A DNA stretch of 64,000 nt from Rhina ancylostomus (lineage: Eukaryota), in NCBI GenBank assembly GCA_030265395.1, contig JARFYF010000036.1, forward strand, positions 27,120,397 through 27,184,396, in the 5' to 3' direction. Both the position numbers and the translations under genes were made by a program. Of this stretch, positions 31,140 through 64,000 are shown in pieces (position 1 is the first letter of the stretch; the number at the start of each line of letters is the position of its first letter). Below the pieces are notes generated by a model. The model made no database searches and was not told the DNA's origin. It saw nothing but the letters and a program-made list of their open reading frames with translations.

Positions 31140-32820
31140 TATAAAATTTCTCACAGGTGAGTAATGATAAAAAAGGTCAAGTAACCTGCTGGAACTCATC
31201 AACGATTTCAAATCAAATTTTTCTAGTCCACTTACGACACTGAGAACTGCCTGGCAATGTGGATAATTAGCTATCTCCTGTTCACAAAAAGGTCAAATCC
31301 AATCCAGCTATTTATGGTCCAATCACTCTACACTCAAGCATGAGCAGACTGATGCTCCTGAAGATGGATCAAAGAGCTGAATCTCAGGGGTGAAGTGAGA
31401 GTGGCTGCCTTAACATCAAGGAAGCATTTGACGGAATGTGGTGTCATAGATCCTTAATGAGAAAGGGTATCAAGAGTAAACACTCCAGTCATATCTCTGA
31501 CAAAGTAAGATGGTTGTTGTTCGAGGTCAATTGTCCCAGCCACAAGCTATCAATGAGGGAGTTCCTCAGAGCATTGCCCTGAGCACAACCATTTTCAGCT
31601 GACTTTCCTGTCATCATAAGTGGGAACGTTCACTGTTGAGTGACATAGACAAGGTGAATGGTCACAGTCCTTTTCCTAGGGAGCCTAAACCAGAGGGATA
31701 GGTTTAAGGTGAGAGGGGAAAGATTTAAAAGGGACCTGAGGGGCAACTTTTTCCACACAGGGGCTGGTGGGTAAATGGAACAAGCTGCCAGAGGAAGCTG
31801 TAGAAGTGGGTTCAATTACAACACTTAAAAGAAATTTAGAGAGATATGGCTATGAAAGATTTAGAGAAATACGGGCCAAATACAGGGAAATGGGATTGAC
31901 TTAGACAGGCATCATGGCTGGCCTGGATGAGTTGGGCCAAAGGGCCTGTTTCTTTGCTGTATAACCTTGACTGCAAAATATTCAATTCCATTCCAAACTC
32001 TCAGAAGATGAAGCATCTGTGCCTGTAAACTTAGATAACATTCAGGAATAAGCTGATATGTGTTAAGAAACACATGTGCTGTTGAATTGCCGGACAATTA
32101 CCATCTCCAACAAGACAGAATCTAACCACCTACCCTTAGCATTCAATAGCATTATCATTGCTGAGTCCTGAGGGTCATCATTGACCAGAAACTCAACTGA
32201 CTAGACATGTTAGATACCATGGCTACAAGAATTGATCAGAGGCTGTGTATCCTGTGGTGAGTGATTCAACTCCTGGCACACCATCTACAGGCATGAGTCA
32301 AGAGCATGATGAAATATTTTCCACTAGACCACATCTAACAATATTCAGAAGCTGACACAGCAGCCCTGTTAGGTGGTATCCCCCTCCACCATCCCAGTGG
32401 CTGNNNNNNNNNNNNNNNNNNNNNNNNNNNNNNNNNNNNNNNNNNNNNNNNNNNNNNNNNNNNNNNNNNNNNNNNNNNNNNNNNNNNNNNNNNNNNNNNN
32501 NNNCTGACAAAGCAGCCCTGTTAGTTGGTATCCCCCTCCACCATCCCATTGGCTGCAGTGTGCACTATTTACTAAATGCACTTTCGTTGCAGCTGTTGGC
32601 TACTCCGACTGCACTCATGTAGCAGGCACGTAGGAACATCATCATTTGCGGTTTCTCCTCCATATAGCTGTTGCTGGCTCTAAATCTTGGAACTCCCGTC
32701 CCAACCACATTGTGGGAGTACCTTCACCAGAAAGCTTGCCGTGGTTCAGAGTGGCAGTTCTCAAGAACATTTGGGGAATGGGAATAAATGCCAGCACAGC
32801 CCACATCCCAAAAAATATTG
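31140..32820 (+). mobile_element. Old CR1-like LINE fragment with a younger CR1/HER1 3' end inserted at about 31630-31970
   Basis: RT remnants (NIKEAFDGMW, GVPQ-like) flank a better preserved aggtttaaggtgagaggggaaagatttaaa...gggcctgtttctttgctgtat segment. Confidence 0.7.
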
Positions 32821-34849: not shown

Positions 34850-35035
34850 AAAAACAAACTGCTGGAGGAACTCAGTGGGTCAGGCAGCATCTGCAAAGCA
34901 GAGGGATAGTTGATGTTTTGGGTCAAGATCCCGCATTAGGACCCGTGCCTATCCTTCTGCCTCCGCAGATGCTGCCTGACCTGCTGAGATCCTCCAGCAG
35001 TTTTTGCTCCAGATTCCAGCATCTGCAGTCTCATT
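34850..35035. repeat. Fold-back dispersed repeat with ~40-bp inverted arms (related copies at 3675-3800, 11470-11710, 17650-17720, 61655-61850, 62465-62590)
   Basis: aaactgctggaggaactcagtgggtcaggcagcatctgc ... gcagatgctgcctgacctgctgagatcctccagcagttt. Confidence 0.75.
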
Positions 35036-39064: not shown

Positions 39065-39638
39065 CTGCCAAACACATTGAAGCACAGGGATTGTTTGACA
39101 GAACTGCACAAAGGACATGAATCACACAGCACAGTGCACTGTGACACATTGACAATGGCCGTTAATCTTTTGCCATAGTATACAAATATACTAACAATCA
39201 ATTTTAAAATGAATGGAGCACACAGCTTAAAAAGAGGGCAACCTTCTGACTTTCTGTTCCTCAGTGGTGAAATGCTCTAGCCAAAATTAATCAAGGACTT
39301 TAATGTGCAAAATTATTTACCCATTTTTTTTTGTCAGAAATCTGTTCATTATACTCATAGCACTTTTGTGCCCTCTTTCAGTAGAAGTCCCTTAATAGGA
39401 GCACAGTTCCTTCCACTTATTGTTTGTTCAATCTGCTACATGCAGACTATGAACTCACTACGTTTCCCTGTAATTCACTAAGATTTGTGTACCCATCTAT
39501 TTCCCTGATAATTAGATAAACTAACCAAAGTAACTGTATATCAATAGGAAGTTATACTTGTATTAATTGCATGTATTTTACAGATGTGCTGTTGGATTCA
39601 GATTTTCAAAAAGATTTTTAAGATTTGAAATAATGCAC

Positions 39639-39869
39639 CTCTAGTAAATCATCCCCATCATTATCCATCTTCTTGCCACATTTCCAGTGTTTCAGGAACC
39701 ATTTCAGCTTCATATAAAGCAGGAAGAGGTTTTGCTTGAACTGATCAGCTTCCTTCACAAACAAGTTTTTCTCCTGGCTCCAGAATTTCTGCTCAAGTTT
39801 GGTCTGCAAATTCAGGCTCTGCAGCTCAAAATCTCTTCGCACAAGTGCCTTTTGTTGCTCCTCCTTAAG
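39639..39869 (-). CDS. SOGA1: SOGA1/MTCL2 coding exon (231 nt, phase 0-0): LKEEQQKALVRRDFELQSLNLQ...FLKHWKCGKKMDNDGDDLLE
   Basis: Acceptor ttccttccatag, donor GAG|GTGCAT. The WSQEKNL...KQNLFLLYMKLKWFLKHW motif is typical of MTCL/SOGA proteins. Confidence 0.9.
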
Positions 39870-40224
39870 CTATGGAAGGAATCATTGAAAACAGAAAAGC
39901 TTTAATCAGAATAATAGTGAAAGCAACCATCTAGGTGTTTCCTATCAGCAACTCACATTGTTTCATTATGGTTCATTGTACACTTGTGTGCAGCATACAA
40001 AACAGATTTTATAGCTGATTAGCTCCATTAGTCTCGTTGAATTCCTGAAGTTCAAAAAGAAAACAATATCATAAATATGTCTTTTCTGTTTCACATTTTG
40101 GATATCTAGATAACAGAGATTAGTCCAACCCTCTTTCTTGGACAGAAGGAATATGAACTCAATGGATTTCCCTGTGCTACAAATTTTGGTGATGCTATAC
40201 TGTTGAATTTGAGCTGTGATTTTC

Positions 40225-40530
40225 TTTTATTCATTTACGGGATGTGCACTTTGTATTGCCCATCTTTAACAAGCTAGGCCATTGTTCAGAGGATAGTTAG
40301 GAGTCAACCACATTGCTGGCATCCAAGGTCAAGTAGCTGCCAAGCTGAGAAAGGACTGTCTGTTTTCTTCCCTACAGAACATTTATAAATAATCTAGGGC
40401 TGCACAGCCATGAATATTGATATATTTTTTAATTCTTCCAGATTTATCTGCTTGAATTGAAATATTCAAGTCACATTGGGGTTTTCAACACTTGTTGGCA
40501 AGTCCTGTAACCTAACCACAATGCCACATT
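40225..40530 (-). mobile_element. SINE related to 2050-2350
   Basis: Shared ggccatt..agagga.ag...aga.tcaaccaca.tgct segment. Confidence 0.5.
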
Positions 40531-40559
40531 GCCCTATCTAAATGTGATGTACAACTTCA

Positions 40560-40940
40560 CCAGAAATTGGCCCCTCAAGCCTGCCTGCCACTCAAGATGA
40601 TCATGGCTGATCTCCCCAGGCCTCAGTTCCTCTTCGGCACCTCAATTATTTCAAAAATTTATCACCTTCTCTTTAAATATTTCCATTGATCTAGCCTTCA
40701 TAACTCTCCAGGGTGAGAATTCTGAAGATTCACTCTGCTCTGCAAAAATTAATTCCTATGCACCTCAGTTTTAAATGACAACCCCTCATCTTGTCATAAT
40801 GTACCCTTGTTCGAGAATTGCCTGCTAGTCTATCCTGCCACGCTTCACTTAGGATCTTACATGTTTCAATAAGAACATCCCTTATTTTCCTAAACTGCTG
40901 AAGAATACAGATCCAACTTCTGCTGCTCATAATAGGGCAG
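40560..40940 (-). mobile_element. CR1 LINE 3' fragment
   Basis: Minus-strand remnant IRDVLIETCKIL...TR...KMRGCHLK and typical 3' tail. Confidence 0.65.
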
Positions 40941-41012
40941 CAAGGCTCTGCCAAAGGCTGCCTGTAATTGTAGAATAGGAACGTTAGCAAGACAAGGCTA
41001 AATTGATTAATT

Positions 41013-41102
41013 AAATGGTTCCTGATACACTGGAAATCTGGCAAGAAGGTGGATAATGATGGGGATGATTTACTGGAGGTGCATTATTCAAAATTTTAAA
41101 AA
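41013..41102 (+). repeat. Inverted partial duplicate of the SOGA1 exon 3' end plus 5' splice site (pairs with 39615-39704)
   Basis: 83/90 nt identical, ungapped, to the reverse complement of 39615-39704 by manual alignment. Confidence 0.93.
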
Positions 41103-42643
41103 CAACCAAATACCATAATTTTGCATTGCTTCTCCCTGAGGACCTGATTGCTCAAAATCTGAAAACACATGAACAATACTTGTTTTACTGGTTTTCTTTC
41201 TTGTCTCATTGTTTAATGGATGCTGGCAGCCCAATGGAACTTCAATTAAATGTCCATTCTTTGTAAGTGGACTACTACAATGAGTAAATTAAGGCTGTGG
41301 GACTACGTGCCAGAATCCATGTGTGGAGATGCATAATCGAGGAATCGCAATCAGAAGCTAGTTCAGCTTTGCTATAGGCAAGTTTAGCATCTTTAATGTG
41401 ACTCCAACAGAGCAATTAAATTTTCAGAAATCAGATATTGAATTTGCCTATACCGTCCCAAAAAGCCAGTGCAAAATTGTTACTCTCTCTTTTAAAGAAT
41501 ACAGTCATAGGAAGATATAATCCAGGAAGCCACTCAGTTATCACATCTGTTGCAGCTCTGTGTCACCCAATTAACAAAATATTGGAAATGGATTTTGAGG
41601 ACCGGTCAGCAGCATCCTAAATAGGACAAAAACTAGATGAGGTATTAAGACATGATGACAGAGTAAAGGAGTACAGACAAACTGATAGGCAACAAGCTTA
41701 TACCTGAAAGCATTTGATTATACAAAAAGCTACCTAATATTTGGAACAGACATTTGGCCAATGAAAGCAAGACTAAATACTCAAGAGCAGTTTGGTATGA
41801 TGGGCAGAACTGATTTTTAAGTAAACATGAGCCAAATGACACTAAAAGTAACAAATATGGATAAGTACTTTACAATAGCATTGAAGAGTCCAAACTATGA
41901 TCACTGCATATTCACCAACTTCCAGTCCATTAGCAGAAAAAAGGTCAAGTTTTCCTAAACTGCAGTCCAACTTTCTAAACTAAATGCTTAATTATAAACA
42001 GATCTCAATTGATGCAGGAATCTCTTGAGTGCTAAAATGTATTTTGTTCCCTACACTCAAGGATTCTCTGCATTCCCTCACTGGCCATCTGTGCCTTGGC
42101 TCCACTTGCTGGAAAATATCATTGCTGTGTCAGGGCCCTACAGTGCTCCTGATTATACATACAATAAAAGAAACCAAAACTTGAAACTGTGACTTAAAAT
42201 TTTCATCTTAATCAAACTTTAACCCCTGCTTTTATAACAACAGATTTCTAGCAACACCATGCTGTGTTCAATGAAAGAATCTTGTGCTGGAAAATATGGC
42301 AGTATATACTCCAACCAAAGTGTGATTTTTCCAAGATTTCTTTTGTAAAACTGGAGTGCAATGGCTAAACTCATTTTAGACTAAAAATCTTACTTCCTAA
42401 GTGTATCCTTGGTGTATTTTGTGCTGCAAGTTCCTAGTCCAAACATCATTTTGGAGAGAACCTTGCTGGATAATTCTACATGAAAAAGAAAGTTATGTCC
42501 ACCACGTTACCCAAATTAAAGGTTTACTGCTGGCATTAAGCGAAATATATGCATGACATGACCAACAACGGCATGCAGATAAAGTCCAATTGTCTCCCAT
42601 TTTCTATTTGGGATAAGGATTTTTCCTGCTTGGGTTCCCTTAC

Positions 42644-43017: not shown

Positions 43018-43143
43018 CTGTGACATTTTCTGTTGAAATCTTTCTGCATCCTCATTCCGAAGCTCCCTTTCCTGAGCAAGCTGCTCCTGCAGTCCTCGGA
43101 TAGTTTCCTTGGCTTCAGATAAATCAAGCTGGAGTTCCTTGAC
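43018..43143 (-). CDS. SOGA1: SOGA1/MTCL2 coding exon (126 nt, phase 0-0): VKELQLDLSEAKETIRGLQEQLAQERELRNEDAERFQQKMSQ
   Basis: Acceptor tttcttatttaactag, donor CAG|GTCAGT; heptad coiled-coil peptide in frame with flanking exons. Confidence 0.85.
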
Positions 43144-49775: not shown

Positions 49776-49915
49776 TTAACACATGCAGACCCTAGATTAA
49801 AACCTGAATTTTTTTTATAGCTGAAACACTACTAAATTTTGGTGGTGCTTCAGCTGTATCTTTTGACAGAGGGTAAAAAAAGTTCAGGTTTTAATCAAGG
49901 GTCTATGCAAGTTAA
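49776..49915. repeat. Intronic nested inverted repeat / long hairpin
   Basis: 49787-49817 versus reverse complement of 49874-49904 is 29/31 identical; an inner stem lies at about 49818-49856. Confidence 0.8.
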
Positions 49916-61650: not shown

Positions 61651-64000
61651 GTAAATACTCAGCTGGTCAGGCAGTATTTGTGGAGAGAAAAACAGAGGTA
61701 ATGTTTCAGGTCAAGGACTTTTTAAATCATAACTTACAAGTGGCCATTCATCAGAAACACTCACTATGGATGTTGTCAGACCTACTGAGTATTTTCAACT
61801 TTTTTTTTGTCTTCTTTCAAATTTCTGGCATCTACATTATTTTGTTTTTCATCATCTCCCTTCTTGTTTTAAAATTGATCAAGTCTTTCTGTTTGGTGAG
61901 GAGAAAGGATTTTTATTTGAATGGCCTAAATAAAAGTCAACATTCACAATAATTCTGTGGAATTAGTGAAGCAGAGGTAAACTCTGCACTGTGAAATAAA
62001 GTCGACAATGAAACACTCCAAACCATTTAGGAAAACACCTAAAAACTTTTTTAAAAACTGGCTGTTCACAGCTTCCTCTCTGGGGCAAATATTTCCCATT
62101 CCCATGATTCAGGAAGCTGGACACATTTCCTCCCTACCCACCCTCAATAACGTCTGTATTTCAAAGCATCAGTTTTTTCCAGTATCCCTTGTTCACAAGC
62201 TTGCACCTGTTTACAGTAAGAGTAGCACAAGGGACGGAGGCAAGGGCAGAGATAATAGTAGAAACAATCTTATAGCCTAGAACCCGCATGTCTAAAATAA
62301 CTCTGTAGAATTGCAGTTAGACCCAGCAAGAAACATTTTTCACAGAATTCTACACTGAATCACCAGTACTGTATCTCTATCACACAGTGACCTATATTAA
62401 CCCACCAGTACAGTGTTCCAGTGTTATATGGAGAAGGTCCATGTCCAGAGTATTGTATTCCTAATATAAAAACAGAACATGCTGGAAACACTCAACAGGT
62501 CAGGAAGCATCTATGGAAAGATATGCTGCCAGACCTGCTGAGCGTTTTCAGTATTTTCTGTTTTTATTTCATATTTTCCAGCATTTTCAAGCACGGTACT
62601 CCTTTTTAAACCCAGTGACCTGGCTGTACCCACCAGCACTGTGCTGTTGTTATACAGGAAGAGACGTATGCCTGCCAGTGGAATACACCCATATCTTGAC
62701 GTGGATACAGACCTGGATCAGGATTTGGGCAGAGGGGACTGGACCATGCCCAATGTGGTCCCCGGGTATTTCAACCCTGTGCACCCGACTCCAGGCCTAG
62801 TTGGAGTCCAGATGGACACTGGGGGTGGTTGAGCCCTACTTCTGATCTGTAGCTACAGCCTCCAGTGCTGTTCCTTGTACCTGCAACCTTCTGCCTGACG
62901 ATGTCATGGGGGATGTGGGTGTCCTGGTAATTTGCAGGAACCAGTAAGATGAGTAACCAGGCAGGACCAAAGTGGATCTTGCAAGGTCACAGGGCCAACC
63001 AATGCTAGTGGACTACATGGAACCATCCCATGTGCTGGGCAAGGCCTCTGGCTCTAGATAAAAAAGAACACCTCCAAGGGTTTGAATTAGCTATTGGTTC
63101 AATCATTCAGGGTCAGGAGCACCAGGACACTTACCTCACTCTTAAAATTTGGGTGTGATTTTAAACAGGGTCCTTTCACAACTTCATCAGGACCCATCAC
63201 CAATTTTAATTTCACAACCGAGCAGGAAACAGCATTCAACTAACAATTCAAATCATGGCCGGAAGAGACCAAACAGATACTTTAATGAACTTGTGATGTG
63301 AACACCAGAGATAAACTGCTTCTTTCCTACACCCTGCCCCCAAACAGGTAAAAGATCCTCTCCTGCTTTCTGGGACCTCGTGTGTGGAGCTACAGGTAAT
63401 TTTTATTTCATTGCCTATCAAAAGCTAGGCGAGAATAACTGGAGCCACAAGGCGCAATATTACTCACTGAGTCATAGAATTTTAAGTGCTCAAAGTCAGG
63501 TGTACACCTCCACTTTCCCCACCTTTTATTTTTTAGCAAAATAAAAACAGAGAATAAGAACTGAATTGTAACGTCATTCTTCTCTGCATTACATTACAAG
63601 TCAGAACATCAAGTAGTTAAATTGCCATATGCATAAAAGACAGGAAAATACATAAACATACTTTGCTGTACAAATTTTGCTACATACCAGTTTGCTTCAC
63701 TTTAAACACAACCTATTTTGTACTTTGGGGTGTACATATGACAAGATGTGGTACTTTACTGATGTAACTTCTTCCTTTCTTATCCCTACAGTAGATCATT
63801 GCTGCACAAAGCTTTGGCTCTAATATACAGTCATCAAACTAAAAGTTTACAAATGACCAACTTGAAATATAGATGTTTGGTTCACTTAAGGCGATTTACA
63901 CCGCTGATGTTGGGAGCGGATTGTGCCCTTGTGATAAGGCTGTTTGAAAGAACACAAATCATTGCTATCTTGAAAACATAAAGGGAATGACAGCCAATTT

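What the first reader, a model, noticed from the sequence alone, without database searches (positions are those of the whole stretch)
39615..41102. Intronic antisense copy of a SOGA1 exon end and its 5' splice site: candidate ADAR editing-complementary or splice-masking element
Seen: + strand 41013-41102 matches the reverse complement of 39615-39704 at 83/90 nt without gaps. That target covers the last 66 coding nt of the exon (KWFLKHWKCGKKMDNDGDDLLE), the GT donor and 24 nt of intron in total. Because the gene is on the minus strand, the pre-mRNA carries the complementary arm about 1.3 kb upstream of the target, so a ~90-bp duplex can form. It would bury the donor and loop out the exon's acceptor. 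Two of the four exonic differences place an exonic A opposite a C: 39668 (A of ATG; editing would give Met to Val) and 39642 (CUA, synonymous, in a UAG context just before the last codon). Established: ADARs edit exon/intron duplexes (GRIA2 Q/R and R/G, HTR2C) and prefer A:C mismatches and UAG triplets; the Met site has a disfavoured 5' G. Inference: this could be a lineage-specific recoding or exon-skipping switch created by local inverted duplication, and the exon is 231 nt and phase 0-0, so skipping stays in frame. The copy includes intron sequence, so it came from DNA or unspliced RNA. It lies ~70 nt from the truncated end of a CR1 fragment, so a neutral repair or insertion by-product is a real alternative.
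Basis: partly seen in the sequence, partly recalled or inferred. Interest (0 to 1): 0.72.

Follow-up and report, generated by a model that had tools for sequence, protein, structure and literature searches.

The report
Backwards SOGA1 exon-end copy in intron
A 90-base backwards copy of the end of one SOGA1 (MTCL2) exon sits in the intron upstream in this ray and three related species and is predicted to pair with the exon in unspliced RNA, but it is likely a tolerated DNA-copying by-product rather than an editing or splicing switch.

Summary
In detail: 41013-41102 is an 83/90 inverted copy of the exon end, donor and 24 intronic nt of SOGA1/MTCL2. It is two-copy in the genome and present in DNA contigs of 3 of 3 related organisms laid, so it is not a misassembly. 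The duplex is predicted to be very stable (-129 kcal/mol). Function is not shown. One spliced contig from an organism carrying the copy includes the exon, unedited at both A:C sites. Two A:C among four exonic mismatches is chance-level (P 0.15-0.25), and the Met site has a 5' G. Three similar unique inverted pairs lie in 896 kb of other DNA of this genome. Two leads keep a splicing role open: an electric-ray RefSeq isoform lacks exactly this exon, and one reading leaves the arm unchanged in organism C, though a cross-check argues against that. The scan noted the same layout in other genes (PRAG1, HCFC1, neurobeachin). Most likely a tolerated templated duplication.

The parts
41013..41102 (+). 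Inverted copy of the exon end, donor and 24 intronic nt. It reads in mRNA sense on the + strand, so it is the complementary arm in the minus-strand pre-mRNA.
   Evidence: spanned by single contigs in organisms B, C, D with 0, 2, 2 gap letters
39615..39704 (-). Template arm: last 66 coding nt of the exon, GT donor (39638-39637) and 24 intronic nt
39639..39869 (-). SOGA1/MTCL2 coding exon, 231 nt, 77 aa, phase 0-0
   Evidence: spliced contig ends at 39637/39871; exact 77-aa deletion in P0160
39668..39668 (-). A of Met codon opposite C (41049), triplet GAU; editing would give Val
   Evidence: unedited in the X14 contig
39642..39642 (-). Third-position A of Leu codon opposite C (41075), triplet UAG; editing would be synonymous
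   Evidence: unedited in the X14 contig
40567..40939 (-). Old, decayed LINE tail fragment (CR1-like by recalled motif) inside the loop; ends 73 nt from the copy
   Evidence: 2443 candidates, 68-77% identity among 39 scored paralogues; mean 71% to 11 paralogues
41114..41158 (-). Possible cryptic 45-nt in-frame exon whose donor lies 11 nt from the copy; unproven
   Evidence: 1 of 2 candidates under a loose rule in this intron; no cover by X14
43018..43143 (-). Upstream coding exon, ends at a codon boundary

Best explanation
The element is a 90-base inverted duplicate of the exon end and donor, shared by four related rays, that likely arose in one template-switch or repair event and is likely tolerated rather than used. 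Shown: the copy is real, two-copy, includes intron sequence and predates the split from organisms B, C and D. Predicted: the pre-mRNA arms pair over about 75 nt including the donor. Inferred: a polymerase copied 90 nt from 1.3 kb away on the opposite strand. The copy then drifted by about 7 changes while the exon stayed fixed. Splicing usually wins over the duplex, or survives it, so the exon stays in the main mRNA, with at most minor skipping or low-level ADAR editing as a side effect.
For: (1) Base rate: 3 inverted and 16 direct unique-looking local duplicates in 895,933 non-N bases from 100 other stretches. All 3 inverted pairs (103-172 nt, 88-92%) are two-copy in genome searches. By hand this is about 7,400 per genome (Poisson range about 1,500-21,600), so some will cover a donor by chance. 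(2) The copy starts and stops abruptly, and the flanks give no further pairing above shuffles (0.67 and 0.39 of shuffles score as high). (3) The exonic mismatches include G:G and A:A, and 2 A:C of 4 has P 0.15-0.25. (4) The X14 contig (organism C, 7,743 nt, depth 14.9) covers the exon edge to edge with one other letter, which DNA run X4 also has. (5) Both listed isoforms of the closest named relative, Pristis pectinata, include the exon. (6) Totals over 40751-41200 are 22 substitutions in 450 nt for C and D (4.9%), like the 31 in 656 (4.7%) shown for the intron nearer the exon. (7) Template switching is known to create reverse-complement repeats in one step (PMC8794818, abstract and opening read).
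Against: (1) Table 3 (40 of 151 rows shown) lists no substitution inside the arm and only 2 in 40950-41200 for organism C. If rows are ranked by depth, as they appear to be, the block is more conserved than the rest of the intron (Fisher P 0.003 for the block, 0.04 for the arm). A simulation of word shares disfavours that reading about 15 to 1, so the point is unresolved. (2) A -129 kcal/mol duplex over a weak-looking donor of an exon 96-99% identical among elasmobranchs might be expected to be harmful unless useful, yet it persists in 4 organisms. (3) Narcine bancroftii isoform X3 lacks exactly this exon, 1 of 54 long chondrichthyan proteins. (4) Only one RNA-like run of unknown tissue was examined, as contigs, which drop minority variants. 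(5) The 3 background inverted pairs are closer (259-574 nt) than this one (1308 nt). (6) No empty site was seen, so the insertion mechanism is inferred.
Confidence: 0.6

Rival explanations
1. Splice-modulating duplex under selection. The upstream arm is transcribed first, pairs with the exon end and hides the donor from U1, so a regulated fraction of transcripts skips the 77-residue exon in frame.
For: Predicted pairing probability is at least 0.96 at every paired position from 39631 to 39702, donor included. An exact in-frame skip isoform exists in RefSeq for Narcine bancroftii, while 0 of 122 informative further vertebrate members lack the exon. The arm is possibly unchanged in organism C (table 3). 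Stable conserved pairings lower inclusion of looped-out exons and obstruct paired splice sites in human genes (PMC8052449, passages read).
Against: Whether Narcine carries the copy is unknown. The X14 contig from an organism with the copy includes the exon. Neither listed Pristis isoform skips it. The conservation signal is contradicted by the word-share check and extends equally into flanks that do not pair.
Confidence: 0.23
2. ADAR editing-complementary sequence. The arm guides A-to-I editing at the A:C mismatches, recoding Met to Val at 39668 and silently editing 39642.
For: Long imperfect exon-intron duplex with two A:C mismatches. [quoted passage not shown] Val occurs at this position in 35 of 115 vertebrate homologues, so it is tolerated. 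A opposite C is more prone to editing (PMC11994451, passages read).
Against: The X14 contig is unedited at both sites, with no second contig over the exon. The recoding site has a 5' G, which ADAR disfavours (PMC11994451), and the UAG site is synonymous. 2 of 4 A:C is chance-level. 21 other exonic A residues are paired with U in the duplex, many at recoding positions, so specific editing would need an extra explanation. No shark or ray protein lists Val here: 50 Met and 3 Ile of 53, though these are genome-based models that would not show editing.
Confidence: 0.1
3. By-product of the neighbouring LINE insertion. The copy was captured as filler when the truncated element integrated.
For: The copy lies 73 nt from the end of the fragment. 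One background inverted pair also brackets a repeat fragment.
Against: The fragment is 71% identical to paralogues that are 73% identical to each other, whereas the copy is 92% identical to its template. The two could be the same age only if the copy had been constrained ever since. 73 nt of unrelated sequence separate them.
Confidence: 0.05
4. Assembly artefact.
For: The assembly is gappy (12 N runs in the window).
Against: Single contigs of organisms B, C and D from 3 other studies span 40751-41200 with at most 2 gap letters. The arms differ at 7 positions.
Confidence: 0.01

Closest known systems
Template-switch / microhomology-mediated templated insertions (PMC8794818 abstract and opening; PMC8421209 passages)
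   Same: Reverse-complement copy of unique nearby DNA made in one step, able to form a stem; germline templated insertions are reported in human genomes.
   Different: The template is 1.3 kb away, whereas PMC8421209 searched within 100 bp. Junction microhomology cannot be judged without the empty site.
ADAR editing-complementary sequences: BLCAP (upstream intron), GluA2 Q/R, CAPS1 E/G, 5-HT2C (downstream intron) (PMC10404624, passages)
   Same: Exon-intron duplex with A:C mismatches; upstream position as in BLCAP.
   Different: No editing seen; the recoding A has a 5' G; conservation beyond close relatives untested; the arm is a near-literal recent duplicate.
Conserved long-range complementary regions that affect splicing (PCCRs, PMC8052449, passages)
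   Same: Long-range pairing that covers a splice site and loops out the acceptor of an exon.
   Different: PCCRs are defined by cross-species conservation, which is unresolved here; no change in inclusion is shown in a species with the copy.

Membership tests
ADAR editing-complementary sequence | Intronic arm able to form a duplex with the exon | tested here: met
   Predicted only: -129.1 kcal/mol, present in the MFE and ensemble of the 1.5-1.6 kb region
ADAR editing-complementary sequence | A-to-G differences in RNA against DNA at the paired exon | tested here: inconclusive
   1 RNA-like run laid (X14, organism C): unedited at both sites; contigs drop minority variants and the tissue is unknown
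ADAR editing-complementary sequence | Favourable context at a recoding site | tested here: not met
   Met site is GAU (5' G); the UAG site is synonymous (preference from PMC11994451)
ADAR editing-complementary sequence | Conservation or compensatory change across species | tested here: inconclusive
   Present in B, C, D; positions of differences only partly shown; two readings conflict. Distant species not examined.
Splice-regulating long-range RNA structure (PCCR type) | Pairing covers or brackets splice sites | tested here: met
   Donor paired at predicted probability 1.00; acceptor in the loop
Splice-regulating long-range RNA structure (PCCR type) | Reduced or regulated exon inclusion tied to the pairing | tested here: inconclusive
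   Exon included in X14; skip isoform in Narcine, whose intron could not be read
Splice-regulating long-range RNA structure (PCCR type) | Loss of effect when an arm is mutated, rescue by compensation | not testable with these tools
   Needs a minigene
Templated (template-switch or repair) insertion | Inverted copy of unique, nearby, unspliced sequence | tested here: met
   Two places in the genome, 1.3 kb apart, includes 24 intronic nt
Templated (template-switch or repair) insertion | Junction microhomology | tested here: inconclusive
   No similarity beyond the arm ends; true switch points need the empty site
Templated (template-switch or repair) insertion | Empty site in an outgroup | not tested
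   Organisms E, F and G were not examined
LINE insertion by-product | Copy abuts the truncated end and has the same age | tested here: not met
   73 nt apart; 71% against 92% identity

The most novel reading that the evidence does not exclude
A single inverted duplication of an exon end gave rays a new donor-masking switch that skips a 77-residue exon of the microtubule cross-linker MTCL2 in frame. The copy was then frozen by selection with its two A:C mismatches, and the electric-ray skip isoform is its product: a splicing and editing guide caught at birth.
Probability: 0.2. Interest if true: 0.62.

Novelty: new member of a known kind. Interest (0 to 1): 0.3.

Why it matters
If neutral, it is one of thousands of local inverted duplicates in this genome, and it shows that an exon can tolerate a predicted 90-bp duplex over its donor. 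If selected, it would be a datable case of a splicing or editing guide created in one mutation, in a lineage where I found no study of ADAR editing among the 15 of 78 papers listed (titles and abstract starts only). It would also give a direct test of how such guides arise. The Narcine intron decides much of this cheaply.

Tried and rejected
Rfam scan of 39400-41800: 0 matches at E up to 1. Extended pairing of the flanks: no better than shuffles. Further copies in the genome: none. Sequencing-run search: no RNA holder listed on record and no RNA-like run of the window's own organism; this is no evidence on expression. Of 24 runs listed, 4 were laid; organisms E to K and run X15 were not examined, so age, empty site and distant conservation stay open. 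X14 gives no cover over the possible 45-nt exon. Conservation test from table 3: P 0.003-0.04 if the table is complete for depth 12.3, but the word-share simulation predicts 50-54 words for that case against 34-35 seen, and 43-45 for evenly spread differences; the model overshoots organism B by about 9 words too. Left unresolved. Paper searches: SOGA1 + A-to-I editing gave 2 unrelated listings; inverted duplication + ECS + intron + origin gave 0; ECS + evolution + duplication + recoding + lineage-specific gave 0; MTCL2 + SOGA1 + splicing + microtubule gave 1 preprint. No supplements were read; editing-site tables in supplements could list SOGA1. Earlier scan notes near this place or like this sequence: none. 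No structure prediction was run, as it would not bear on the question.

Full report
Observation. The inverted repeat is exactly as described: 39615-39704 against 41013-41102, 83 of 90 without gaps, 1308 nt apart. A search of the 2.2-Gb assembly with the copy and its flanks returns only the two arms, and a protein search with the exon returns the exon and the copy. The exon is 231 nt. Its 77 residues are 96-99% identical to SOGA1/MTCL2 of 13 sharks and rays. The two large exons are 99.2% and 97.8% identical to Pristis pectinata and 90-93% to stingrays and an electric ray, so the organism is a sawfish-like ray. MTCL2 cross-links microtubules at the Golgi and oligomerises through central coiled coils (bioRxiv 10.1101/2021.09.07.459224, passages read); I did not map this exon onto its numbered coils.

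Predicted RNA. The two arms give a duplex of -129.1 kcal/mol, against -4.3 and -11.3 for each arm folded alone. In the 1.6-kb context the paired positions from 39631 to 39702 have probability 0.96 or more, donor included. This is an equilibrium prediction and says nothing about co-transcriptional splicing. The flanks add no pairing beyond shuffles. Rfam has no match.

Other species. One search listed 24 runs from 11 coded organisms; 4 were laid on 39560-41200. Single contigs of organisms B, C and D span 40751-41200 with 9, 22 and 22 substitutions and 0, 2 and 2 gap letters. So the copy is present in 3 of 3 and is not an assembly error. More distant organisms were not examined, so the age is only bracketed from below. 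If the exon stood still and the copy drifted, its 4 changes in 66 nt are roughly 2.5 times the per-lineage distance to organism C (hand arithmetic).

Is the copy conserved? Table 3 shows 40 of 151 places. The rows shown fit a ranking by depth, ending at 11.9, and organism C's contig over the copy has depth 12.3. If that ranking holds, C differs from the window at only 2 places in about 40950-41200 and at none in the arm, against 31 in 656 nt nearer the exon (Fisher P 0.003 for the block, 0.04 for the arm, 0.04 for the flanks). The ranking rule is my inference. A cross-check with the share of sampled words held by C (34-35 of 182) disagrees. Simulations give 50-54 words if the differences cluster in the repeat and 43-45 if they are spread evenly, about 15 to 1 for even spread in the more careful run. 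The plain totals (22 in 450) match the neighbouring intron. I leave this unresolved. Any conservation would also cover flanks that do not pair, one of which holds a possible 45-nt in-frame exon.

Editing. Two of four exonic mismatches are A:C. With 24 A in 66 nt and a transition share of 0.5-0.66, two or more arise with probability 0.15-0.25. The recoding site is GAU and the UAG site is silent. ADAR favours 5'-UAN over 5'-GAN, and A opposite C is more prone to editing (PMC11994451, passages read). The Met position is variable outside cartilaginous fish: Leu 66, Val 35, Met 13, Ile 1 among 115 of 120 hits with the motif. Run X14 (organism C; RNA is the tool's guess, but the 7,743-nt contig fits only 39637-39871 and runs on at both ends, as a spliced mRNA would) has one other letter in the exon, 39843, which DNA run X4 shares. 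No second contig covers the exon. Majority editing in that sample is therefore unlikely; minority editing is not excluded.

Splicing. The same contig shows inclusion in an organism that has the copy. Among 54 long chondrichthyan proteins, one lacks the exon: Narcine bancroftii isoform X3, by an exact 77-residue deletion. Among 134 further cluster members, 122 were informative (2 of the 134 are chimaera entries) and none lacks it. These clusters were seeded by proteins that contain the exon and at most 15 members were listed per cluster, so skipping is undercounted. Whether Narcine has the copy could not be read. This is the best lead for function. In human genes, stable conserved pairings lower inclusion of looped-out exons and obstruct paired splice sites (PMC8052449, passages read).

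Base rate. In 100 other 10-kb stretches (895,933 non-N bases; 20 beside the window, 20 elsewhere on its contig, 60 on other large contigs, picked by round coordinates) I counted pairs of at least 50 nt and 80% identity, 50 nt to 5 kb apart, under 20% covered by distant hits. Of 51 local pairs, 19 passed: 3 inverted and 16 direct (some direct rows belong to one tandem array). The arms of all 3 inverted pairs, 103-172 nt at 88-92%, are two-copy in genome searches; 1 direct pair checked is also two-copy. By hand that is about 7,400 inverted pairs per genome, range about 1,500-21,600. With roughly 200,000 donors (recalled figure), tens would cover a donor by chance before selection. Template switching makes such repeats in one event (PMC8794818, abstract and opening read). 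Germline templated insertions are reported in human genomes, though searched within 100 bp of the template (PMC8421209, passages read).

The LINE fragment. It spans about 40567-40939, is 71% identical to 11 paralogues that average 73% among themselves, and carries decayed ORF2-tail-like peptides (CR1 label recalled). It looks much older than the copy and does not abut it, so I rate it a bystander.

Comparison and verdict. It works like an exon-intron duplex of the ECS or PCCR type in geometry only; BLCAP is the precedent for an upstream ECS (PMC10404624, passages read). Membership in either class is not shown. It fits the templated inverted duplications in the feature that could be tested. Earlier scan notes describe the same layout in PRAG1, HCFC1, neurobeachin and TRP-gamma, mostly judged neutral; these are unchecked leads, not support. 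No paper on this element or on SOGA1 editing turned up; supplements were not read. Verdict: real, inherited across close relatives, probably tolerated (0.6), with a splicing role the main open rival (0.23).

Noticed in passing
P0160 (XP_069740097.1, Narcine bancroftii isoform X3): RefSeq isoform lacking exactly the 77 residues of window exon 39639-39869; the only skip among 54 long chondrichthyan proteins.
   Followed up: partly
window 41114-41158, minus strand: Possible cryptic 45-nt in-frame exon without a stop, with a pyrimidine-rich acceptor and a weak donor 11 nt from the copy; 1 of 2 loose candidates in the intron; no isoform listed contains it.
   Followed up: partly
P0008, P0150, P0151, P0152, P0154 (Stegostoma, Rhincodon): Isoforms with 18 extra residues right after this exon, as if a donor 54 nt downstream is used; the donor of this exon may be weak across elasmobranchs.
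   Followed up: no
L058:8481-8954, L078:772-1340, L107:5114-6026: Unique two-copy inverted pairs of 103-172 nt at 88-92%, 259-574 nt apart; the L058 pair brackets a repeat fragment.
   Followed up: partly
window 49787-49904: 31-nt inverted repeat at 94% with 56 nt between the arms.
   Followed up: no
window 32352-32555: 52-nt direct repeat on either side of a 100-N gap, likely an assembly overlap; the same pattern appears in L040, L043 and L066.
   Followed up: no
window 34856-35003 and 62466-62567: Short fold-backs (39 and 45 nt arms) made of a small repeat family that recurs in the window.
   Followed up: no
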